Positions 4,688 to 63,069 of a stretch of 64,000 nucleotides of DNA are shown piece by piece. The stretch's first letter is position 1, and each line of letters starts with the position of its first letter. The translations under genes were made by a program, and so were the position numbers. The notes beneath the pieces were generated by a model. It ran no database searches and was not told the DNA's origin. It was given only the letters and a program-made list of their open reading frames with translations. Location: the NCBI RefSeq assembly GCF_053078305.1, contig NZ_CP166879.1; one strand, 5' to 3'.

Positions 4688-5950
4688 TTACTCCGCCACA
4701 CTCTCGCGCAGCGGTTTCACAGGAAAAACTTTTACCTGCTTAATCATATTGTCCTGTACGTCGAGAATATCGATATCGTACTCGCCAATACGCACGCGGG
4801 TGCCTGCGACAGGGATCTCTTCCAGTGCCTCAAGAATGACGCCATTAACCGTGCGGGCATCATCTTCCGGTAGATGCCAGTTAAAGGCTTTGTTGATTTC
4901 CCGCACGTTGGCAGTGCCATCAATAATCACCGAACCGTCGTTTTGCGGCGTGACTTCTTCGGCAAGTGTTGGCGACATCGACGTAGTGAAATCGCCGACA
5001 ATCTCTTCCAGAATATCTTCAACCGTCACCAGCCCCTGAATGTCTCCATACTCGTTGACGACCAGGCCGACTTTCTTTTTGTTGCGCTGAAACTTTACCA
5101 ACTGCGTGCTGAGCGGCGTACCTTCCGGCACAAAATAGATCTCGTCCGCGGCGCGCAGCATGGTTTCTTTGGTGAACTCTTTTTTCTCCGACATCAACCG
5201 CCAGGCTTCACGTACTCGCAGCATACTGATGGCGTCGTCCAGCGAATCACGGTAGAGCACGATGCGCCCGTGAGGTGAGTGGGAGAGTTGGCGCAGAATC
5301 GATTTCCAGTCATCGTTGATATCAATACCGATAATTTCACTGCGCGGCACCATGATGTCATCAACGGTCATTTTTTCCAGATCGAGCACCGACAGCAGCA
5401 TATCCTGATTGCGACGGGAAATTTGTGAGCGCGATTCGTGCACGATAGTGCGCAACTCTTCTTTGCTCAAAGAGCCGCTAACCACGATATCGGTTTTGAT
5501 ACCCATCATGCGCATCAGCATACGGGTGATAGCATTCAGCAACCAGACCAGCGGCATCATCAAAATTTGCAGCGGAGCCAGCAGAAAACTACTCGGATAA
5601 GCGACTTTTTCCGGGTACAGCGCGGCAATGGTTTTCGGCAATACCTCAGCAAAAACCAGTACGACAAAAGTCAGCACACCAGTCGCAATTGCCACGCCCG
5701 CATCGCCGTACAAACGCATCCCAACAATAGTGCCGAGCGCGGAGGCAAGAATATTGACCAGGTTATTGCCGATTAACACCAGGCTTATCAGGCGGTCTGG
5801 CTTACGCAGCAATTTTTCGACGCGTTTGGCCGAGCGATTACCCTGTTTCGCCATATGTCGCAGACGATAGCGGTTGAGGGTCATCATTCCGGTTTCGGAC
5901 CCGGAAAAATAGGCTGAAATGACCACCATGATGATCAGAATAATGATCAA
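4688..5950 (-). CDS. yfjD: Inner membrane protein YfjD (DUF21-CBS-CorC/HlyC family)
   Basis: 420-aa ORF with N-terminal transmembrane segments and C-terminal CBS/CorC-like region. Confidence 0.88.
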   Translation of the reverse strand: MIIILIIMVVISAYFSGSETGMMTLNRYRLRHMAKQGNRSAKRVEKLLRKPDRLISLVLIGNNLVNILASALGTIVGMRLYGDAGVAIATGVLTFVVLVFAEVLPKTIAALYPEKVAYPSSFLLAPLQILMMPLVWLLNAITRMLMRMMGIKTDIVVSGSLSKEELRTIVHESRSQISRRNQDMLLSVLDLEKMTVDDIMVPRSEIIGIDINDDWKSILRQLSHSPHGRIVLYRDSLDDAISMLRVREAWRLMSEKKEFTKETMLRAADEIYFVPEGTPLSTQLVKFQRNKKKVGLVVNEYGDIQGLVTVEDILEEIVGDFTTSMSPTLAEEVTPQNDGSVIIDGTANVREINKAFNWHLPEDDARTVNGVILEALEEIPVAGTRVRIGEYDIDILDVQDNMIKQVKVFPVKPLRESVAE

Positions 5951-54732: not shown

Positions 54733-54937
54733 TTACCGTTAAATTATTTTAAAATCAGTAAGTTGTATCGAGTTTGTATGCTTTACAGTTATTAACTTAC
54801 TGTATGTTGATCCAGTGTATTTAACCTTGATAAACTCAGTCCAGCAACACAAAACCGCAACACATTGCATTTTGTCCCGTAGAAAAGACTTGTATGTGTG
54901 AGCTTGTTTTCTGCGCCTACGCAGATAAGGATTGAGA

Positions 54938-56335
54938 ATGCCGCGCACTGTAACACATAATCCGGATAGCCCCAATAATGACGATGTTTTAGCCGCATCT
55001 GAAAAATGGGACGCCTGTAAACCCCCCTATACCAGCGCACACATAAAAATCTGTGTTGCTGCCGCCAAAATCATCCTCGCAGCTTCCGGCGTGGCTCGCC
55101 GTTCCAAATACGAAAAAGAGAACTATCTCCGTATCGATTTCAGCAAAGCCGGTAAGGTTACATTTTACGCCGAGTTTCCAAAAAAGATGGGCCTCAAGGG
55201 TAAAAAGCTCGGCGAGTGGCCGGAGCTCGCTATCCAGCTGGCGCGCGAAAAAGCGCTAGGTATGGCTGACTGTGGCTTGCGGGCAGAGTCCGTACATGCA
55301 GCGCTGGAAATGTACCGGGATGACCTCAAAGCCAAAGTCGCCCGGCAGAAGCTGAGCCCGGACAGTTTCACAACCTACGGGGTGCGTATCGACCGGATTA
55401 AAGCAACGTTCGGCGAGCGTGAGGTGTTCAGCGACGTAACATACAATCGGCTAGTGGAAGTGCTGGACGAGTGGATCGCCACTCGCTCGAACAATAACGC
55501 CCTGGAGTTGTTTGCCGAGCTCCGTCGGTTCTGGAAGTTCTGCGCACCTACTCTTTGTAACGGTCGCAATGTTGCTGCCAGTCTGCCAGATGATTATGTT
55601 TCCTCCCGCGTACAGAAACCCACCCCCACACGGCTTTTTACCGATATTGAGTCAATCGCCCGGCTCTGGCTCAATGTTGCCGCCTGCACCTCTGTACACC
55701 AGAAGAATGCTGTTCGCTTCATGATCATCACCGGCGTTCGTCCGATTAATGTCCATAACCTGCGCTGGGACTACGTTCACGAGGAGACTGGCGAAATTGT
55801 TTATCCTGAAGGGGTTATCGGCATGCGAGGGGCTATGAAAACACAAAAGGCTTTCCGCCTGCCAATAACGCCGGAGATCCGGCGGATTATCGACGAGCAG
55901 AAAGCATGGCGTGATTCAGTTCCTGAGTGCAACAGGGATTATGTATTTTTGCAGCCGCGTGATCCAATGCAGCCATTTTCAAAACGATCACTGGATAAGC
56001 TAGTGAAAACATACAGCCCGGATGGGGCTGTAAAAGGATTAAAACATGATGGGACTGTTAAAGGGAAAGACGGTGCATTTAATACGATGTGCCGTAAATT
56101 CCTTAAGAGCAATGTTATTGCCTTGATGAAGGAAAGAGGCTATTCCCGATCAGACCGAAGGGAAATCAGCCTCCTTTGCCTTCACCACTCCAGCAAGTCA
56201 GATGACCCGATGGCAGAACATTACGACTTTTCTGATGAGATTTTGCAGGAAGAGATTGCGTTAAAGCGCGAAGCTTTCGAGGCTCACGAGCGGAGCATAC
56301 TTGCGCAGGTGGCATTGCTACGGCGGCGAGGTTAA
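54938..56335 (+). CDS. Putative site-specific integrase (tyrosine recombinase-like, P4-type N-terminal domain)
   Basis: About 465-aa ORF at the island edge, convergent with an AlpA-like gene; N-terminal region resembles integrase arm-binding domains; start codon uncertain (TTG at 54932 or ATG at 54938). Confidence 0.6.
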   Translation: MPRTVTHNPDSPNNDDVLAASEKWDACKPPYTSAHIKICVAAAKIILAASGVARRSKYEKENYLRIDFSKAGKVTFYAEFPKKMGLKGKKLGEWPELAIQLAREKALGMADCGLRAESVHAALEMYRDDLKAKVARQKLSPDSFTTYGVRIDRIKATFGEREVFSDVTYNRLVEVLDEWIATRSNNNALELFAELRRFWKFCAPTLCNGRNVAASLPDDYVSSRVQKPTPTRLFTDIESIARLWLNVAACTSVHQKNAVRFMIITGVRPINVHNLRWDYVHEETGEIVYPEGVIGMRGAMKTQKAFRLPITPEIRRIIDEQKAWRDSVPECNRDYVFLQPRDPMQPFSKRSLDKLVKTYSPDGAVKGLKHDGTVKGKDGAFNTMCRKFLKSNVIALMKERGYSRSDRREISLLCLHHSSKSDDPMAEHYDFSDEILQEEIALKREAFEAHERSILAQVALLRRRG

Positions 56336-56532: not shown

Positions 56533-57923
56533 GCTATACCTCTCTTTTTCATGGCATCGAGCAGGATGTCCTGCACTGTTCGTTTTGAGTTGCGCCGCTC
56601 CATCACCATTTCGTCCATAGTGTCGGCAGCAATAATGTGGTGAATAAATACCGGACGATTGTGTCCGGCTTGTATCTGCCTGGTGGGGCCGATACGTTCA
56701 ATAATTTGCTGATATTGCTCCAGGTCCCACCAGTGTGAGAAAAATACCAGTATATTTCCGCCGTCTTGCATGTTCAGGCCGTGGCCCGCGCTGGCTGGGT
56801 GTGCAAAGAGAACAGGAATCTTTCCGGAATTCCAGTCGCGCAGTGTCTGTGGATCCTGGTCGAGGTGACGACCGCGAGGGAATGCTTTAAGCAAGCGTTC
56901 AAGATCGTGTTTCCAGTGATAAGCAACCAGCACAGGTGCGCCAGCTGCTTCGGCCAGTATGCTGTCCAGCGCCTGTAGTTTGGTGTCATGCAGTTCTGAC
57001 CAACTTCCGGTGTCGTCTGTGTATACTGCGCCACTGGCGATTTGAAGACACTTCAGTGTCTTTGCCGCGGCGTTCGGTGCTTCGATGCCTTCGCCATTCA
57101 GCTCGAGGAACATTTCCTTTTCCATTTCACGATACTGCTGACGGGCCTTCGGGGGCATATCCACGCGGATTACGTTATGGATGGGGTCTTTGATATCGAA
57201 CCAGTCGGCCGCATCCAGCGAGAGGGTCACATCGGCTAACGCTCGCTGTATTTCACCCTGTGAGTGAGCAAAAGGCTCCAGTTTGGTCCAGCTCTGCCCC
57301 GGAAACTGTATCGATTTGAACCAGCGTGAGGTAAATGCGCCGTAAGTGCGCCCGAGACGTTGCCCCAGGTCCACAAACCACGATTGTCCCCACAAATCTA
57401 CCAGGCCGTTCGGTGCTGGCGTACCGGTGAGATTTATCCAGCGCCGGACATACTTGTGCGCCACTTTGCCCAGCGCCGCCGCGCGCTTACCACCACCTCG
57501 CAGCCGGAAGGATTTTAGCCGGGTGCTTTCATCTGGAATGACAGTACCGAACGGCCATCGTTCTCCCAATTCCTCAACCAGCCAGACAAGGTTATCGTAG
57601 TTGATGGTGAACACGCTCGCGTTGTTGTTCGCCAACGCTGCAGAGCGCGCTTTGGCATTACCAACAATTGGTTGTACCTCGATATTGCGCAAATGCCCCC
57701 ACTTCAGTGCTTCATCCGGCCAGGTGTTTGCTGCAACGCGTAGCGGCGCGAGGACCAGCGCGGGGCGTGTTTCTGCTCCAGCCATGAAAAGATCTTCCAG
57801 CGTGGTGAGTGTCGCTACGGTTTTACCCATCCCCATCCCTGCCCAGATGTTGCCGCGCAGAATGTCGGTTTGGTGATTGATTATGAGGTTTTGATAAAGT
57901 CGGGGGTGGAATATGTTATTCAT
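56529..57923 (-). CDS. Phage-type SNF2/DEAD-like helicase
   Basis: Walker A GMGMGKT, motif II DEST, C-terminal helicase domain; start placed at the Met of MNNIFHPRLYQ (ORF track extends to 57998). Confidence 0.8.
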   Translation of the reverse strand: MNNIFHPRLYQNLIINHQTDILRGNIWAGMGMGKTVATLTTLEDLFMAGAETRPALVLAPLRVAANTWPDEALKWGHLRNIEVQPIVGNAKARSAALANNNASVFTINYDNLVWLVEELGERWPFGTVIPDESTRLKSFRLRGGGKRAAALGKVAHKYVRRWINLTGTPAPNGLVDLWGQSWFVDLGQRLGRTYGAFTSRWFKSIQFPGQSWTKLEPFAHSQGEIQRALADVTLSLDAADWFDIKDPIHNVIRVDMPPKARQQYREMEKEMFLELNGEGIEAPNAAAKTLKCLQIASGAVYTDDTGSWSELHDTKLQALDSILAEAAGAPVLVAYHWKHDLERLLKAFPRGRHLDQDPQTLRDWNSGKIPVLFAHPASAGHGLNMQDGGNILVFFSHWWDLEQYQQIIERIGPTRQIQAGHNRPVFIHHIIAADTMDEMVMERRNSKRTVQDILLDAMKKRGIA

Positions 57924-57985
57924 TAATACACCTATGGTAGAATATGTGTCAATTCTCTCTCTATATATAACTAACGGAGGCGGGT

Positions 57986-58783
57986 ATGCCCCTGGCAAAA
58001 ATACTTACAAAACAAGTTTCTTTATTAACTGTTTTTTCAGCGTTAGCTTATGTGATGGCATATTCTTTTCAGAAAGGTGTTGCATCGTATTATGGCTATC
58101 CAGCCCTTTTTATTAAAATAGATTTAAATACGCTATTGTATTCGGCTGTATGGCTTTTGTTTTTTAGTTTTTTATTTCTCGGTGCCTTATACGCGACATT
58201 GATGTTTGATTTGAAAGGGAAATATTATGTTCCATTTATTATATTTATAGTGGTTATGCTAATACCTAATTTTTACATAATAGGATTCCATTGGCCTTTT
58301 GGTTATTTCTCAGAAACCTCTGTGATGAGTGTTGGAGATATTTTATTATTTGCTCTGCTTTTGTTGAATTACCACAATGCGGTGTCCGCGTCAATCCATA
58401 GTAAGAGACACGAACATCATATGGATAGCATTAGAAAATTTGGGAGGCTTGCAGAGTATAAAGACGTATTTTATTATATCGATTTAAAAATCCTAAAATC
58501 AGCTTTTCCTTTAGGGGTGATGACATTATTGATATTGAGCTATACCTTCGGGAAGGTTACTGCATTTAAAAATAACGAATATTATATGGTAGATGGTAGT
58601 AATACTAAAGTGTTGCTCAATTCATTTGGTAGTGGTTTTGTTGTTGGTGATTGTGAGTCCAATAGCGCAAAATTTGAATTTGTTAATGATTTAAAAGGGA
58701 TGAAATTCACAGTCATGTCCTCTAAAAAGGAAATAGCTAAATTAAAAGAGTGTTTCGAAACACGTGTTAAAAATACGGATTAA
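57986..58783 (+). CDS. Hypothetical polytopic membrane protein (265 aa), AT-rich cargo gene
   Basis: GGAGG 7 bp upstream of the ATG; about five predicted hydrophobic helices plus a roughly 70-aa hydrophilic C-terminus; divergent from the helicase; no family recognised. Confidence 0.65.
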   Translation: MPLAKILTKQVSLLTVFSALAYVMAYSFQKGVASYYGYPALFIKIDLNTLLYSAVWLLFFSFLFLGALYATLMFDLKGKYYVPFIIFIVVMLIPNFYIIGFHWPFGYFSETSVMSVGDILLFALLLLNYHNAVSASIHSKRHEHHMDSIRKFGRLAEYKDVFYYIDLKILKSAFPLGVMTLLILSYTFGKVTAFKNNEYYMVDGSNTKVLLNSFGSGFVVGDCESNSAKFEFVNDLKGMKFTVMSSKKEIAKLKECFETRVKNTD

Positions 58784-58795
58784 AGTATAAGTCTT

Positions 58796-59083
58796 TTATC
58801 TTTTATTGCGGCTTAAAATAATTTCCTCCAGATTTTTGCTATCCAGCACCACCACGGTAAAGCCCAGCTCGCGCAGCCGCTTGTGCTCGCGCAACTGGTC
58901 GGCGCGTGGTGCTTTGCCGGGTGCTTTGCATTCAACGAAAACAAGACGGCCGCCGGGTAGCAGAACAATGCGATCCGGTACCGAGCGGCGACCAGGTGAT
59001 ATGAACTTAAAGGCGACCCCACCAGCCTTTTTCACTTCGGCGACGAGATGCTTCTCGATTAGGTTTTCACGTTCATATATCAT
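58796..59083 (-). CDS. VRR-NUC domain nuclease
   Basis: 95-aa ORF with PDRIVLLPGGRLVFVECKAPGKAPRADQLREHKRL, matching the VRR-NUC pattern of PD...(D/E)xK with a conserved Q. Confidence 0.8.
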   Translation of the reverse strand: MIYERENLIEKHLVAEVKKAGGVAFKFISPGRRSVPDRIVLLPGGRLVFVECKAPGKAPRADQLREHKRLRELGFTVVVLDSKNLEEIILSRNKR

Positions 59084-59125
59084 ATGACGTTTCCTTTAGC
59101 CCTCTAGTTTGAGGGCTGGGAATCT

Positions 59126-59677
59126 TTAGCGACGGCTGGGATGAATTTTTTCACGGAGAACTAAGGTTAGTTGTTCTAGTGTCAATGGCTCGCCAAAATT
59201 CTCATGAAATAATGGATTGAATACATGCATCATGCGTTCGTATGTTGCCAGCGAAGGCGTGTGAGAATTAAGATCTCTTAATTTGAATTCTTCAAATCTA
59301 TCCAGTTTATTGATGACGAAATCAGCGGCTGCAAGATACTCAGTTTCGTTATTTCCATCGAATCCTTTGAATATTGGATTTTTTCCAAATAACTCAACAT
59401 TTTCTTTTAACTTCTTTTTTTCTTCTTCTGTAAGTTCACTGTAGCTATATTCAATAACTCTCCACATATCTAGGATGTCTAGAACTTTTTTTACAACACG
59501 TGGAGTTTCGGTATTTTTAAATGGAATACCACTAAATTTCCAAGGGAGTGCCCATGTTTGGTTTTCGAATATAGCATCACGGACAAATGTGTGATCGATT
59601 TCGCCTTCAATCTCGTTTTTATCGTACAGGTCACACAGCATCATTAGAATTAGTTTTTCGCCATCTGAAAGTTGCAT
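59126..59677 (-). CDS. YfbU-family (UPF0304) protein, 183 aa, AT-rich cargo gene
   Basis: MQLSDGEKLILMMLCDLYD..., FKGFDGNNETEYL, HTPSLATYERMMHVF align with remembered E. coli YfbU motifs (AQRLILSNQYKMM, FLGFDAATEARYL, QTPMWEKYQRML). Confidence 0.65.
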   Translation of the reverse strand: MQLSDGEKLILMMLCDLYDKNEIEGEIDHTFVRDAIFENQTWALPWKFSGIPFKNTETPRVVKKVLDILDMWRVIEYSYSELTEEEKKKLKENVELFGKNPIFKGFDGNNETEYLAAADFVINKLDRFEEFKLRDLNSHTPSLATYERMMHVFNPLFHENFGEPLTLEQLTLVLREKIHPSRR

Positions 59678-59682
59678 GTTTT

Positions 59683-60192
59683 TTATCCTTGAGTGTTAAA
59701 CGTTAAATCATCAACGAGTAGATCTATGTGAGGTTGAATAGCCAATATTTTTGCATGCAAAACTCTACCTGTTCTTAACTTTTCCGCAGGAGTTTTTGCA
59801 TCTGAAAGCTCAGAAATATTTTCCCTTATTTCAGCACAAAAATTTTCTGAGTCTATGCTCAATTTTACTTTATTGTTAGGTTTTATTGCTTGGGCTGCAA
59901 ATAAATCGATGAAATCCTCTATTTCAGAAATTATTGGTTCTAAACTTATGCCTCGAACATTTTCCTCATTCGAACCAGGACCAATTGCTCTTAGAGATTT
60001 TATGGCGGTTGATAACTTTCCATGAAGGTTGCCTGCGTCCCTTATACTACGTTGATAATTGACCGTAGCTAAAGCCTTTTGAGCTTCTGTGGCGGCATCC
60101 CGCGACTTTTTCCACCCCCATAGTGAACACATAGCACCAACTATGGTAACAAAAGTACCTATCCTTGATAGCCAGACATCTGTATTTTCCAT
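59683..60192 (-). CDS. Hypothetical membrane-anchored protein (169 aa), first gene of a two-gene cassette with the YfbU-family gene
   Basis: Single N-terminal hydrophobic helix (IGTFVTIVGAMCSLWGW) then a charged helical region; 5-nt gap to the downstream ORF; AT-rich. Confidence 0.6.
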   Translation of the reverse strand: MENTDVWLSRIGTFVTIVGAMCSLWGWKKSRDAATEAQKALATVNYQRSIRDAGNLHGKLSTAIKSLRAIGPGSNEENVRGISLEPIISEIEDFIDLFAAQAIKPNNKVKLSIDSENFCAEIRENISELSDAKTPAEKLRTGRVLHAKILAIQPHIDLLVDDLTFNTQG

Positions 60193-60277
60193 TAAAGCAC
60201 CAAAAACAATCTGTTAAGGATAGCTATATGATACATATATCTTCAATGATGTCATGTATCTGATTTGTGAGCTGTGA

Positions 60278-62341
60278 TCAGTCCTTACGGTAGTGGTACG
60301 CCTCAAAACCGCCAGCGTTCAGTGGGATATCGGGCGCCCATTCGGGGTTAGTGGAGAGAAGCGCGGAAAGCGCTTTATCGTTGAAATCTTCTGTGTCAGG
60401 TGCTTCGGTGATCACCTCGTCGTGTACCGTCAGCACAATGCTGTAACCGGCATCTTCGATAAGCGGCATGTTTCCGGCCAGAACGTCGCGGGCGGCCGCT
60501 TGGGTGACGTTCTCCACCAGCTTTCCGCCGTAGGTTTTGAGTCGTTGCCATTTACGTGAATAAGAGTTAACACCCATATAGGTGATATTCCCTTTTTCGA
60601 TAATCGGAGACGGGTAGCATACAGCGCGTCCAGATGGCAGCTGTATGCGCAGCCACGCGCCATCACGTCGGATTTTAAGATAGCCGCAATACAATGTTTT
60701 TTGCGGTGTGGCGATTGCAGTGCGGACGGTGCGCTCCAGTTCGTACCAGAAATCACAGGTCGCGGGATGCGCCCGGCGCCAGAGACGTTTAAGTGAGTCG
60801 CAGGCGATAAATACCCGTTCAGAAAGCCCGTAGGTTGACTTGCGTTTAACCGATTCGTCGTACCAGCTTTTCGCCTCGCGGATAACATCGCGGGGAATGT
60901 TTGGTAGTGCGGCGTTCGCCAGCTCGTCGAGATCGAGACCGTAAACCAGTGCAAAAGTGATGAAGGCCGACACACCACCACCATAACCCAGACCGAGTTC
61001 CATGACTTTACCGATCTGACGCATGTGTTTATCAACATCATCTGGTGCAATATCGAAAGCTTTTGCATACGCCAGTTTATATAAGTCCGGACCCGTTCCG
61101 GCGTCGTACTCTCTGAATGCATTCAGTTTCCATTCTTCTCCCGCCAGCCATGCCAGCATACGGCCTTCAATGTTCGACAAGTCACTTACCACCAGCTTTT
61201 TGCCTGTTGGCGCGATAATGCAGCCACGTAACGCTGAACTGGTTAGTTCCATGATATTGTCAAACAGCAGGTCTGCACATCCGGCTTTCAGTGCTTCGAT
61301 GCCTTCGTCTATTTGTTCCTGTTTTAGTGAAGGGCGGGGAAGGTTCTGGGGCTGGAATAGCCGTCCGGCCCAACGACCGGTACGTGACGCCCCGCAGAAC
61401 TGTAGCGTACCGCGTAAGCGCCCGTCGTGGCTTACGCCTTTCATCAGTGCCTTGTATTTACTGGTGCTGGTAGTACTGGCCTGCAGGCGGATAGCCAGCA
61501 GTTCTTTCACGGCAGATGGTAAATCGGGGTCGGCAATACGACGTTCCAGAGTACTGCGTTGCATGTCTGGTAGCTCCACACCGTAGGATTCAACAATGTG
61601 CTTAATCAACGCGTCTCGTTGTGTGGCTGCCTGCACTTCGCCATCAGTCATTTCCTGTGTACGCTTTGCCAGGCGCTTTTGTTCCTGGTCTACCGCGTCG
61701 ATCGCAGCGCGTGCGAGTTCCACGTCCATGCAGACGCCCCGGTCATTGATCTGCTGATCACGATGCCAGAGCGCCAGTTCTGTCCCCTGATAATTCCACT
61801 TCGGCAGACGTTTATAGACTTCGCGCATTGCCTCGATATCCAGTCCGGCGTAAGCAACAAAGCGCCGCCATTCTTCCGGGTGGGTTTTGCTGGTGGCCCG
61901 GCGCAGTTTGCTGTTTTTCGGGCGTGGCTTACAGAACAGCTGGATCAGCGCTTTACCTTCTTTGTCCTTCGCTTTGTCTTGCGGGACGCCTAGTACTTCG
62001 CAGAGTTCCCCCAGAGACCCCGGGAGACCGTGCGCCAGCGCCTGCACCATTGTGTCGCGCCAACGTTCGACTGGCGGTGCCAGGCGCGGCATTGCATAAC
62101 GCAGAACGGTGCGGTCGAAGTGAGAGTTATGGAAATAAAGCAGGGTTTCAGGGTCTGCGATTGCTTCGTATAAGCCGTGTGGAATACCACCACCGGCAGT
62201 GATATCCCACACGTTTACTGGCCCGTCGTTGATAGCCCATGCGAAAAGCATCACTTCAACGCCTTCGGCATACGCATGGGTACCGTTCGTAATAGGGATT
62301 TCGCAATAGGTTTCCAGGTCGCCCCATAGTATATTGGACAT
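60278..62341 (-). CDS. Phage-type family A DNA polymerase with 3-prime-5-prime exonuclease domain
   Basis: 687-aa ORF; Exo I DLETY; pol motifs DLSNIEGR (A), [16 protein letters not shown] (B), HDEVITE (C). Confidence 0.88.
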
Positions 62342-62387
62342 GTGTTTACCTTGGTTTTTATTCTATTAACTGATTAAAAGATTAATT

Positions 62388-63017
62388 ATGCATATGATCC
62401 AATACTTGATTGACCATACAGAGCATCTGGAGAAAATAGCTGGATATATTTTTTCATGTTTGATTGTTATGGGAGTCTGGATAAGAAAGATCATTTTTAA
62501 TTATAAGTATAAAGAGCCTAAATATGTCAAGAAGTTAATTTTATATTTAGTTAAGTATGAACGTTATCTGGATGAGGAGGATAAGAGTGCCATAGAAAAA
62601 AGAATAAATGATAAAATTATTCGTGATGCGCTGAAATTGCAATCCTCTTATAACCGAAGAGATGTTATTTACATTTGCAATAGATTAGAAAAAAGACAGT
62701 ATATAAATCAGTTGATTAAGCTTCAGAATTATATAGAGAAAGATAACGGAGTGTTTTTTATTAATGTTGATTTTTCAGGTTTTTTATTTATTATTAGTCG
62801 TCTGTTTTCCTTTCTGTGTTTTGTGCTGTTTACCCTTTTTTCTATTATCTGCATTATTTCCATAGGGCAAAATGAAGGCCTTTTAAATTATCTTGTGTAT
62901 ATGGTTATGATAATAGTTTTAGAGACTGTTGGTTTTTGGATGTATGATACTTTCCCGTCTAAGAAAAAGATCTGTGAACTAAATAAAGAATTGAGAAAGA
63001 TTAAGATTCCTGAGTGA
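62388..63017 (+). CDS. Hypothetical membrane protein (209 aa), very AT-rich cargo gene
   Basis: ORF divergent from the polymerase; predicted N-terminal helix and two C-terminal hydrophobic helices; Lys/Ile/Tyr-rich; no family recognised. Confidence 0.55.
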   Translation: MHMIQYLIDHTEHLEKIAGYIFSCLIVMGVWIRKIIFNYKYKEPKYVKKLILYLVKYERYLDEEDKSAIEKRINDKIIRDALKLQSSYNRRDVIYICNRLEKRQYINQLIKLQNYIEKDNGVFFINVDFSGFLFIISRLFSFLCFVLFTLFSIICIISIGQNEGLLNYLVYMVMIIVLETVGFWMYDTFPSKKKICELNKELRKIKIPE

Positions 63018-63069
63018 TTATACGCCTAATCAGTAGCCCGGTGTTTAACCGGGCGTCTATGAAGTAGGG

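What the first reader, a model, noticed from the sequence alone, without database searches (positions are those of the whole stretch)
59126..60192. AT-rich two-gene cassette (membrane-anchored protein plus YfbU-family protein) inserted inside a prophage replication operon
Two co-directional ORFs separated by 5 nt sit between the family A DNA polymerase and the VRR-NUC nuclease, genes that are usually adjacent in this type of replication module. The cassette is visibly more AT-rich than its neighbours, has its own 85-bp AT-rich upstream region (60193-60277), and is followed by a hairpin (59084-59125) before VRR-NUC. The first product is a single-pass membrane protein with a charged helical domain; the second matches the YfbU/UPF0304 family, whose biochemical function is not known to me. 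A compact membrane-protein-plus-soluble-partner module acquired in a phage variable slot is the typical shape of prophage-encoded anti-phage defence, abortive infection or toxin-antitoxin pairs. I cannot link this pairing to any named system, which makes it the best candidate for a new system in the window.
Basis: partly seen in the sequence, partly recalled or inferred. Interest (0 to 1): 0.8.

Follow-up and report, generated by a model that had tools for sequence, protein, structure and literature searches.

The report
Membrane protein plus YfbU-like defence candidate
A small, self-promoted two-gene cassette (a new single-pass membrane protein family plus a YfbU-like protein) sits in a swap-in slot of an E. 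coli prophage and travels as a unit between prophages, plasmids, integrons and defence islands, so it is most likely an untested two-gene relative of the recently described YfbU-type anti-phage system Kamadhenu.

Summary
Genes A (59683-60192, 169 aa) and B (59126-59677, 183 aa) lie 5 nt apart on the minus strand. Their GC is 0.36-0.38, against 0.52-0.54 for the flanking polymerase and VRR-NUC genes. They fill a 1.2-kb segment (59078-60281) whose content differs among 158 E. coli genomes with this prophage module; only 4 carry this pair.

B is a YfbU-domain protein (PF03887, E 6e-21) but not the chromosomal YfbU orthologue. A belongs to an undescribed family: 225 clusters, no Pfam or PADLOC match, a conserved N-terminal hydrophobic helix and a confident four-helix bundle.

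The pair is conserved in unrelated contexts:
- prophages, an IncFII plasmid, an ICE and Tn7-like cargo;
- Vibrio integron cassettes;
- sites next to Lamassu, Wadjet, Gabija-like, type IIG RM, TIR and DUF4297-HerA genes.

Gene order is reversed in distant members. A conserved promoter-like element moves with the closer relatives.

One YfbU-domain protein, Kamadhenu of Lactococcus, is an experimentally shown single-gene abortive-infection system. I read the cassette as a two-gene variant of that kind. Function and mechanism are inferred, not shown. Toxin-antitoxin and non-defence readings remain open.

The parts
59078..60281 (-). Variable segment ('slot 2') of the prophage replication module. 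It contains the whole cassette.
   Evidence: blastn homology to E. coli IAI1 and 24AR0357 stops at window 59077 and resumes at 60267-60282. In 158 E. coli genomes the content between VRR-NUC and PolA differs.
60228..60255 (-). Promoter-like element: ATGACA, 16 nt, TATCAT, upstream of gene A.
   Evidence: It matches 10 of 12 consensus positions. The scan alone is not above chance: 4 sites found against 3.8 expected. However, ATGACA-N16-TATCAT (ATGACT in the metagenomic island) recurs upstream of gene A in Morganella, that island, a Raoultella plasmid and a Lonsdalea ICE, within otherwise unrelated sequence; the IMG/VR copy has a divergent -10.
60193..60277 (-). 85-bp AT-rich spacer between the PolA stop codon and the gene A start codon.
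   Evidence: GC 0.318; sequence.
59683..60192 (-). Gene A: 169-aa protein of an undescribed family, with an N-terminal hydrophobic helix followed by a cytoplasmic four-helix bundle.
59126..59677 (-). Gene B: 183-aa YfbU-domain protein of the 'FxGFDGNNE' clade.
   Evidence: PF03887 E 6.3e-21. phrog_6084 E 7e-42. NCBIfam YfbU equivalog scores 57 bits against a cut-off of 90. hhalign to K-12 YfbU gives probability 97.6% at 25% identity. More than 262 clusters are 50-99% identical.
59091..59122 (-). Hairpin between gene B and VRR-NUC. It has no T-run and partly pairs with the VRR-NUC ribosome-binding site.
   Evidence: Fold of -21.3 kcal/mol, z = -4.1. It is found only in the prophage lineage (L001, L010-12) and not with the pair elsewhere.
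58796..59083 (-). Downstream flank: VRR-NUC nuclease gene of the prophage backbone.
   Evidence: phrog_93 endonuclease, E 1e-29; RefSeq annotation in relatives.
60278..62341 (-). Upstream flank: family A DNA polymerase gene of the prophage backbone.
   Evidence: ORF; annotated as DNA polymerase (PF00476) in relatives.

Best explanation
The cassette is a self-contained accessory module ('moron') carried by a lambdoid-type prophage integrated next to yfhL. It has two genes and its own promoter. It most likely acts as an anti-phage, abortive-infection-type defence system.

**Proposed working.**
1. The cassette is transcribed from its own promoter in the lysogen, independently of the phage replication operon. 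This is inferred from the conserved promoter-like element.
2. B, the soluble YfbU-like protein, is the conserved core. By analogy with Kamadhenu, it reacts to a phage replication or recombination product such as a single-strand annealing protein. This step is inferred.
3. A is anchored in the inner membrane by its N-terminal helix, with its four-helix bundle in the cytoplasm. It is either the effector, compromising the membrane when released or assembled by B, or the anchor that holds B in check. This step is also inferred.
4. The infected cell stops growing before the phage completes its cycle.

**Shown here:** the anatomy, the obligate pairing of A with this clade of B, the mobility of the pair as a unit, and its residence in defence-type locations.

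**Not shown:** any phenotype, any A-B contact, or which partner is toxic.
For: **Pairing.**
- A lies directly upstream of B on the same strand, with a gap of -98 to +25 nt, in 22 of the 25 species-representative genomes whose B is most similar (45% identity or more). One of those 22 is a degraded 66-aa fragment 301 nt away. Below about 47% identity A is absent.
- All three distant A-family members whose contigs I looked up sit beside a YfbU gene. Two of them are in the reversed order, B then A.
- Identity matrices of A and B across 38 pairs correlate (Mantel r = 0.86; 0 of 2000 permutations reach this).
- Both genes are under purifying selection.

**Mobility as a unit.**
- The same slot in a Citrobacter-like prophage.
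- A prophage edge next to icd in Morganella.
- An IncFII plasmid, with A 47% and B 66% identical to the window proteins.
- The tra region of an ICE.
- Cargo next to Tn7-like transposition genes.
- A single 1.23-kb Vibrio integron cassette bracketed by attC-like TAACAAAC...GGGCGTTA repeats, seen in four different neighbourhoods.

**Defence neighbourhoods.**
- Lamassu LmuA/LmuB, E 6e-88 and 4e-114.
- Wadjet plus BrxR.
- OLD-TOPRIM ATPase plus UvrD helicase, Gabija-like by Pfam domains.
- Type IIG restriction-modification; PDC-M55C/HEC-05; TIR PDC-S66/bSEFIR; a ThsA-like protein plus DUF4297-HerA.
- The same E. coli slot holds TIR PDC-S35 in strain IAI1.

**Precedent.** The 180-aa YfbU-domain protein Kamadhenu gives an abortive-infection phenotype on its own (PMC11381338). 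Phages escape it by a mutation at G22 of a Sak-like single-strand annealing protein (PMC12184496).

**Own promoter.** The promoter-like element is conserved with the pair across contexts.
Against: - No experiment exists on this pair.
- Neither protein matches any PADLOC model.
- Guilt by association is weak evidence. Several sampled neighbourhoods had no recognisable defence gene (L027, L045, L048).
- Integron cassettes and mobile-element cargo are also rich in toxin-antitoxin and other accessory genes.
- Kamadhenu works as a single gene, so the need for A is unexplained. Its sequence could not be retrieved, so how closely B is related to it is unknown.
- An AlphaFold2 model of A fused to B through a linker gave pTM 0.40, so it provides no support for a defined complex.
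- A has no enzymatic or pore-like fold, only a generic helical bundle.
- The hydrophobicity of the window's own A helix is borderline (1.53).
Confidence: 0.5

Rival explanations
1. The pair is a toxin-antitoxin or addiction module whose main role is to stabilise the mobile element that carries it. One partner, for example the small membrane protein A, is toxic and the other neutralises it. Any phage effect would be secondary.
For: - It is a compact, tightly spaced two-gene operon with its own promoter.
- It occurs as an integron cassette in Vibrio and on plasmids and ICEs, places where toxin-antitoxin modules are common.
- A related plasmid YfbU protein carries a weak ribbon-helix-helix N-terminus (E 1.2e-3), as many antitoxins do, and lies next to a RelE/ParE toxin gene.
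- E. coli YfbU was reported as a MazF-dependent 'death protein' (PMC2646832).
Against: - Neither protein matches a known toxin or antitoxin family.
- Both are larger than typical small membrane toxins.
- Solo B-like genes are common in prophages without any partner.
- Kamadhenu, a single YfbU-domain gene, is tolerated when constitutively expressed (PMC12184496).
Confidence: 0.15
2. The pair serves the prophage or its host in a way unrelated to defence. For example, it might tether replication or recombination intermediates to the membrane, or modulate a host stress or cell-death pathway, as the chromosomal yfbV-yfbU neighbours might.
For: - It sits inside a replication operon, between the polymerase and a nuclease, on the same strand.
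- In E. coli K-12 the chromosomal yfbU is also immediately preceded by a membrane-protein gene, yfbV. YfbV acts in chromosome macrodomain organisation (PMC3330122).
- Chromosomal YfbU occurs in higher-order assemblies (PMC3210124).
Against: - The pair occurs in contexts with no replication module: integron cassettes, a plasmid accessory region and chromosomal islands.
- Only 4 of 158 E. coli genomes with this replication module carry it, so the module does not need it.
- A is not homologous to YfbV (hhalign probability 0.07%).
- B scores below the YfbU equivalog cut-off.
Confidence: 0.12
3. The pair is a counter-defence or inter-element competition module. The prophage, plasmid or ICE expresses it to disable a host immune system or a rival element.
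For: - It is carried by many kinds of mobile element, including phage genomes in IMG/VR and the transfer region of an ICE.
- Anti-defence genes also cluster in variable slots and next to defence genes.
Against: - It is also found as chromosomal integron cassettes and in islands beside intact defence systems. That is the usual pattern for defence rather than anti-defence.
- The only tested family member is a defence protein (PMC11381338).
- A membrane-anchored partner is not typical of known anti-defence proteins (my own knowledge, not tested here).
Confidence: 0.08

Closest known systems
Kamadhenu (Lactococcus plasmid pUCCL624_130; Grafakou et al., NAR 2024, PMC11381338)
   Same: - It is a protein of about 180 aa made of a YfbU domain (PF03887), like gene B (183 aa, PF03887 E 6e-21).
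- It is carried on a mobile element together with other defence systems.
- It has an abortive-infection-type phenotype, which is the function proposed here.
   Different: - Kamadhenu is a single-gene system. Here the YfbU-like gene has a conserved membrane-protein partner that co-evolves with it.
- Kamadhenu is Gram-positive and plasmid-borne; this pair is mostly in Proteobacteria.
- Direct sequence comparison could not be made because the Kamadhenu sequence was not retrievable.
- Kamadhenu is not in PADLOC or DefenseFinder (PMC13335696).
Chromosomal YfbU (UPF0304) of E. coli K-12, PDB 1WPB / 4LR3, with its upstream neighbour yfbV
   Same: - Same Pfam domain; hhalign probability 97.6% over residues 59-175.
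- A membrane-protein gene lies immediately upstream on the same strand.
   Different: - Only about 25% identical, and below the NCBIfam equivalog cut-off (57 against 90 bits).
- The clade-specific motifs GFDGNNE and LNSH read GFDAATE and FNAQ in K-12.
- YfbV is unrelated to A and belongs to a different Pfam family (PF04217, DUF412).
- The chromosomal genes are core genes, not mobile.
RexAB of phage lambda (analogy of working only; from my own knowledge)
   Same: It is a prophage-encoded two-gene exclusion system. A soluble sensor responds to phage replication or recombination complexes, and a membrane partner collapses membrane potential.
   Different: - No sequence or fold relationship was found.
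- RexB is a multi-pass membrane protein, whereas A has a single predicted N-terminal helix plus a soluble bundle.
- No PADLOC model matched either protein. I did not check whether that library contains Rex models.
YfbU-like protein plus FRG-domain protein (PADLOC candidate PDC-S15)
   Same: A close relative of B (46% identity) in Cupriavidus, and two others, are followed by an overlapping or tightly spaced partner gene. This suggests that the YfbU-like protein is a reusable module paired with different partners.
   Different: The partner is a soluble FRG-domain protein (PF08867 E 7e-21; PDC-S15 E 5e-71). It lies downstream rather than upstream, and it is unrelated to A.

Membership tests
Pfam YfbU domain family (PF03887) | Significant match to the YfbU profile over most of its length | tested here: met
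   E 6.3e-21, query residues 1-171 on model positions 1-161 of 166. PDB YfbU chains match at E 1.3e-5. hhalign probability is 97.6%.
Chromosomal YfbU orthologues (NCBIfam equivalog NF003936 / PRK05445) | Whole-protein score at or above the curated cut-off of 90 bits | tested here: not met
   57.3 bits, with only residues 61-154 matched. B is a paralogous mobile clade, not the housekeeping YfbU.
Kamadhenu anti-phage system | Protein of about 180 aa consisting of a YfbU domain or fold | tested here: met
Kamadhenu anti-phage system | Single gene sufficient for the phenotype (single-gene architecture) | tested here: not met
   In this clade the gene is almost always paired with gene A: 22 of the top 25 species representatives, in both gene orders. 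Whether B alone is sufficient cannot be tested with these tools.
Kamadhenu anti-phage system | Sequence-level relatedness to pUCCL624_130, placing it in the same clade | not tested
No supplements are held. No Lactococcus hit appeared in the listed plasmid or protein search results.
Kamadhenu anti-phage system | Abortive-infection phenotype, with phage escape through mutation of a single-strand annealing protein | not testable with these tools
   This needs phage challenge and isolation of escape mutants (PMC12184496 describes the assay).
Any system in PADLOC-DB v2.0.0 | Match of either protein to a defence-system profile | tested here: not met
   No families for A or B at E <= 1. Neighbouring and alternative-slot genes do match: PDC-S35, LmuA/LmuB, HerA/DUF4297 and type IIG restriction-modification.
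Type II-like toxin-antitoxin modules | Recognisable toxin or antitoxin domain in one of two small co-transcribed genes | tested here: not met
   The two-gene architecture is present. No toxin or antitoxin family appears in Pfam, NCBIfam or PADLOC. Toxicity cannot be tested here.
yfbV-yfbU chromosomal gene pair | Upstream membrane protein homologous to YfbV (PF04217) | tested here: not met
   hhalign of the A-family alignment against K-12 YfbV gives probability 0.07%. A has no PF04217 hit.
Integron gene cassette (applies to the Vibrio homologues, not the window copy) | Unit bounded by attC recombination sites and found in different cassette arrays | tested here: met
   Repeats of about 120 nt (TAACAAAC...GGGCGTTA) lie at L020 5331-5449 and 6559-6681 and bracket the pair. 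The same 1.23-kb unit occurs in four neighbourhoods. The window copy has no such repeats and sits in a prophage slot.

The most novel reading that the evidence does not exclude
The A-B pair is a widespread two-component abortive-infection system that has not been described. The YfbU-like protein is a reusable sensor of phage recombination or replication proteins. It is coupled either to a new single-pass membrane effector (family A), to an FRG-domain protein, or to a DNA-binding N-terminus. On this reading, studying the pair would also give the first biochemical function for the long-orphan YfbU/UPF0304 family, including the chromosomal yfbU next to yfbV.
Probability: 0.3. Interest if true: 0.75.

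Novelty: new variant of a known kind. Interest (0 to 1): 0.62.

Why it matters
**An orphan family.** YfbU/UPF0304 has had crystal structures for about twenty years but no biochemical function. The single-gene Kamadhenu result showed that one member blocks phages, without a mechanism.

**What this pair adds.** It is a genetically tractable E. coli version with a dedicated partner, which gives the pathway a second handle. The handles include membrane localisation, interaction, and asking which partner is toxic.

**Breadth.**
- The partner family A is itself undescribed: 225 clusters at 50% identity and no Pfam entry.
- The pair spans Gamma-, Beta- and Zetaproteobacteria, Desulfobacterota and some Bacillota.
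- It moves on prophages, plasmids, ICEs, a Tn7-like element and integron cassettes.

**Practical gain.** If the pair is confirmed as a defence system, it adds one that current annotation tools (PADLOC and DefenseFinder) do not flag. It would also mark the replication module of this E. coli prophage family as carrying three cargo slots.

Tried and rejected
1. **Known-family searches.** PADLOC, NCBIfam, PHROGs and Pfam on gene A gave nothing usable. Scanning all 116 aligned A members against Pfam found no consistent family. Two members had sub-threshold SLATT_1 or Saf_2TM hits (E about 6e-3), too weak to use.
3. **Homology of A to YfbV, the K-12 neighbour of yfbU.** Rejected: hhalign probability 0.07%.
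4. **AlphaFold2 on A fused to B.** I joined the two with a 30-residue Gly-Ser linker and used 29 paired sequences to look for a complex. The result was pTM 0.40 and mean pLDDT 73.8, and the tool returns no interface information, so it is uninformative.
5. **Retrieving the Kamadhenu sequence.** I tried the paper's supplements (none held), tblastn of B and of an Enterococcus YfbU protein against plasmids, and a protein search. No Lactococcus hit was listed.
6. **Locus search with the deep A alignment.** It failed because no stretch is conserved enough. I used the B alignment instead.
7. **The hairpin as part of the mobile unit.** Rejected: it occurs only in the prophage lineage.
8. **The hairpin as an intrinsic terminator.** Not supported: there is no T-run and the scan did not call it.
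Full report
**1. What is in the sequence**

Two minus-strand ORFs lie at 59683-60192 (gene A, 169 aa) and 59126-59677 (gene B, 183 aa), separated by 5 nt. Upstream is a 687-aa family A DNA polymerase gene (60278-62341). Downstream is a 95-aa VRR-NUC nuclease gene (58796-59083; phrog_93, E 1e-29).

The two genes are clearly more AT-rich than their neighbours:

| Gene | GC | GC3 |
|---|---|---|
| A | 0.38 | 0.27 |
| B | 0.36 | 0.31 |
| PolA | 0.54 | 0.57 |
| VRR-NUC | 0.52 | 0.55 |
| SNF2 helicase | 0.54 | 0.57 |

The 85-bp spacer upstream of A (60193-60277) has GC 0.32. It contains a promoter-like ATGACA-16-TATCAT at 60255-60228.

The hairpin between B and VRR-NUC is real: a 7-bp G+C stem extended to 59091-59122, z = -4.1. 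It has no T-run, so it is not a canonical terminator.

RefSeq annotation of near-identical E. coli genomes calls the same two genes 'hypothetical protein' and 'YfbU family protein'.

**2. Setting**

The window's right end is a prophage integrated beside yfhL. In order it carries:
- integrase (54932-56335);
- a small helix-turn-helix gene;
- SNF2 helicase;
- VRR-NUC, then the cassette, then PolA;
- DUF2815.

In a 99.8%-identical relative the element continues with DUF2800, a repressor-like gene, a DUF5906 primase, Q antiterminator, holin and lysozyme.

Homology to relatives that lack the cassette breaks at 59077 and resumes at 60267-60282. The whole 1.2-kb interval between the VRR-NUC start codon and the PolA stop codon is therefore the variable unit.

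Among 5,426 complete E. coli genomes, 158 match the region queried (window 58700-60400) and only 4 have this cassette. In the others the slot holds one of the following:
- a lone ANR-family regulator, the most common content;
- TIR plus ANR;
- an ATP-binding protein on the opposite strand;
- DUF7446 plus ANR.

The TIR protein matches PADLOC candidate PDC-S35 at E 7e-109. Two further AT-rich slots flank the same module (57897-58816 and 62342-63069).

**3. The two proteins**

*Gene B.*
- It is a YfbU-domain protein (PF03887, E 6.3e-21 over residues 1-171; phrog_6084, E 7e-42).
- It is not the orthologue of chromosomal YfbU. It scores 57 bits against a curated cut-off of 90 and is about 25% identical to K-12 YfbU.
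- It belongs to a well-conserved clade of 183-186 aa proteins, with more than 262 clusters at 50-99% identity.
- The clade has invariant polar motifs (F-x-G-F-D-G-N-N-E, R-F-x-x-F, L-N-S-H, R-M) that differ from K-12 YfbU.

*Gene A.*
- It has no match in Pfam, NCBIfam or PADLOC.
- A profile search of 1.84 billion representatives found 225 clusters at E <= 1e-3, nearly all 150-180 aa.
- Scanning 116 members against Pfam found no consistent family.
- The family shares an N-terminal hydrophobic helix. In 88% of members the Kyte-Doolittle 19-residue maximum is 1.6 or more, and in 98% it starts within the first 15 residues. The helix is followed by basic residues and is rich in small residues.
- The window protein itself is borderline at 1.53.
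- AlphaFold2 with 116 sequences gives pLDDT 95.3 and pTM 0.78, with one helix from residue 2 to 70 leading into a four-helix bundle.
- Some public annotations start A at Met21 (149 aa) and so lose the hydrophobic helix. Protein-level conservation of the first 20 residues supports the 169-aa form.

**4. Is the pair a unit?**

Yes.

- **Close relatives.** Relatives of A (47-85% identical) always sit directly upstream of a B relative.
- **Species representatives.** A scan of one genome per species with the B alignment returned 164 loci. Of the best 80, 23 have an A-family ORF immediately upstream on the same strand. These are 22 of the 25 with the most similar B (one is a degraded fragment). Below about 47% B identity, A is absent.
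- **Distant members.** All three distant A members whose contigs I looked up are next to YfbU genes. Two are in the reversed order, B then A.
- **Co-evolution.** Across 38 pairs the identity matrices correlate (Mantel r = 0.86; 0 of 2000 permutations reach this). A diverges about 1.6 times faster than B.
- **Selection.** dN/dS against an 82%-identical relative is 0.17 for A and 0.09 for B.
- **Promoter.** ATGACA-N16-TATCAT (ATGACT in the metagenomic island) recurs upstream of A in Morganella, that island, a Raoultella plasmid and a Lonsdalea ICE, within otherwise unrelated DNA; the IMG/VR copy has a divergent -10. The hairpin does not recur.

**5. Where the pair travels**

- The same prophage slot in a Citrobacter-like element, beside Wadjet (MksBEF/DUF7281) and BrxR.
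- Between icd and a prophage integrase in Morganella.
- An integrase island beside Lamassu LmuA/LmuB.
- An IncFII plasmid.
- Inside the tra region of an ICE.
- Next to Tn7-like transposition genes.
- Beside an OLD-TOPRIM ATPase plus UvrD helicase and an integrase.
- Beside type IIG restriction-modification, PDC-M55C/HEC-05, a TIR protein (PDC-S66/bSEFIR), and a ThsA-like protein plus DUF4297-HerA.
- In Vibrio, one 1.23-kb integron cassette bracketed by attC-like repeats, seen in four different arrays.

Three of the ten species-representative neighbourhoods I sampled against PADLOC had no recognisable defence gene among the ORFs tested.

**6. Relatives of B without A**

- Three loci pair a B-like gene with a downstream FRG-domain protein that matches PADLOC candidate PDC-S15.
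- A Xanthomonas plasmid version carries a weak ribbon-helix-helix N-terminus (E 1.2e-3).
- IMG/VR holds 160 relatives of B. Only the three most similar have A.
- In at least 25 prophage loci a solo B-like gene lies beside Rz-like spanin genes or a small terminase subunit gene, and in several beside both. The lysis-to-packaging junction is a classic cargo site.
- A P2-like Yersinia phage carries one after its baseplate and tail-fibre genes.

The YfbU-like protein therefore looks like a common mobile-element accessory module with interchangeable partners.

**7. What is known**

- Kamadhenu is a 180-aa YfbU-fold protein from a Lactococcus plasmid. It is a single-gene abortive-infection system (PMC11381338).
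- Phages escape it through a mutation at G22 of a Sak-like single-strand annealing protein (PMC12184496).
- It does not block phage DNA replication, transcription or translation (PMC13064643).
- It is absent from PADLOC and DefenseFinder (PMC13335696). This explains the empty PADLOC result for B.
- E. coli YfbU was reported as a MazF-dependent 'death protein' after DNA damage (PMC2646832).
- In K-12, yfbU is immediately preceded by the membrane-protein gene yfbV. YfbV is known from chromosome macrodomain work (PMC3330122). A is not homologous to YfbV.

**8. Interpretation**

The best-supported reading is a self-promoted, two-gene anti-phage module of the abortive-infection type.
- B is the conserved YfbU-like core, probably the sensor. 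By analogy with Kamadhenu it would sense phage recombination or replication proteins.
- A is a membrane-anchored effector or anchor.

The anatomy, the pairing, the mobility and the defence-type neighbourhoods are shown. The trigger, the A-B contact, the toxic partner and the phenotype are inferred. An attempt to detect a complex with a linker-fused AlphaFold2 model was uninformative (pTM 0.40).

The rivals are:
- a toxin-antitoxin or addiction module;
- a non-defence accessory role;
- a counter-defence role.

None is excluded.

**9. Novelty**

The YfbU-domain defence kind is known from one Gram-positive single-gene example. The conserved two-gene architecture with an undescribed membrane-protein family is, as far as the libraries and full-text searches available here show, not described. 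I rate it a new variant of a known kind, of moderate to high interest.

Noticed in passing
window 57986-58783 (+), within variable interval 57897-58816: A second AT-rich cargo gene (265 aa, GC 0.325) with several hydrophobic segments, on the opposite strand, between SNF2 helicase and VRR-NUC. It has no PADLOC or NCBIfam match. The interval differs between relatives: a 108-aa hypothetical protein in OkiPb01695, and DUF4406 or a SAM methyltransferase in others.
   Followed up: partly
window 62388-63017 (+), within variable interval 62342-63069: A third AT-rich cargo gene (209 aa, GC 0.29; phrog_10579, E 3e-108, function unknown), on the opposite strand between PolA and DUF2815. In OkiPb01695 the interval instead holds an 89-aa gene plus an Nmad5-family gene. 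This replication module therefore has three swap-in slots.
   Followed up: partly
L106 (E. coli K-12 NC_000913.3 2412100-2413132): Chromosomal yfbU is immediately preceded on the same strand by yfbV, a membrane protein (PF04217) implicated in Ter macrodomain insulation. This mirrors the architecture of a membrane protein followed by YfbU. YfbV is not homologous to gene A (hhalign probability 0.07%).
   Followed up: partly
L007 4001-5301; also L050 and L052: A B-like YfbU protein (46% identity) is followed by an overlapping FRG-domain gene (PF08867) that matches PADLOC candidate PDC-S15 at E 5e-71. This is an alternative partner for the same YfbU clade.
   Followed up: partly
L015 3899-4438 and 270 Enterococcus plasmid records: A distinct 179-aa YfbU-family gene is very common on Enterococcus faecium plasmids (148 records at 99% identity or more). 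It often lies among IS elements and near resistance and toxin-antitoxin genes. It might be the closer relative of Kamadhenu, but this was not established.
   Followed up: no
L006 3827-4549 (Xanthomonas citri plasmid pXcaw58): A 240-aa YfbU-family protein has a weak N-terminal ribbon-helix-helix match (RHH_1, E 1.2e-3). It lies just downstream of a RelE/ParE toxin gene. Many A-less relatives of B have similar N-terminal extensions of 50-60 aa.
   Followed up: partly
L125-L184 (IMG/VR loci), around position 5000 of each: In at least 25 prophage contigs, solo YfbU-like genes (183-186 aa, 32-39% identical to B) lie beside Rz-like spanin genes or the small terminase subunit gene, and in several beside both.
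   Followed up: partly
window 59683-60192; UniProt A0A085P140; P0005: Some public gene calls start gene A at Met21 (149 aa). This removes the conserved N-terminal hydrophobic helix and makes the protein look soluble.
   Followed up: yes
L016 10660-10914 and the E. coli slot variants: A small DUF7446 gene appears as alternative cargo in the E. coli PolA/VRR-NUC slot. It also appears a few kb from the A-B pair in the Lonsdalea ICE.
   Followed up: no
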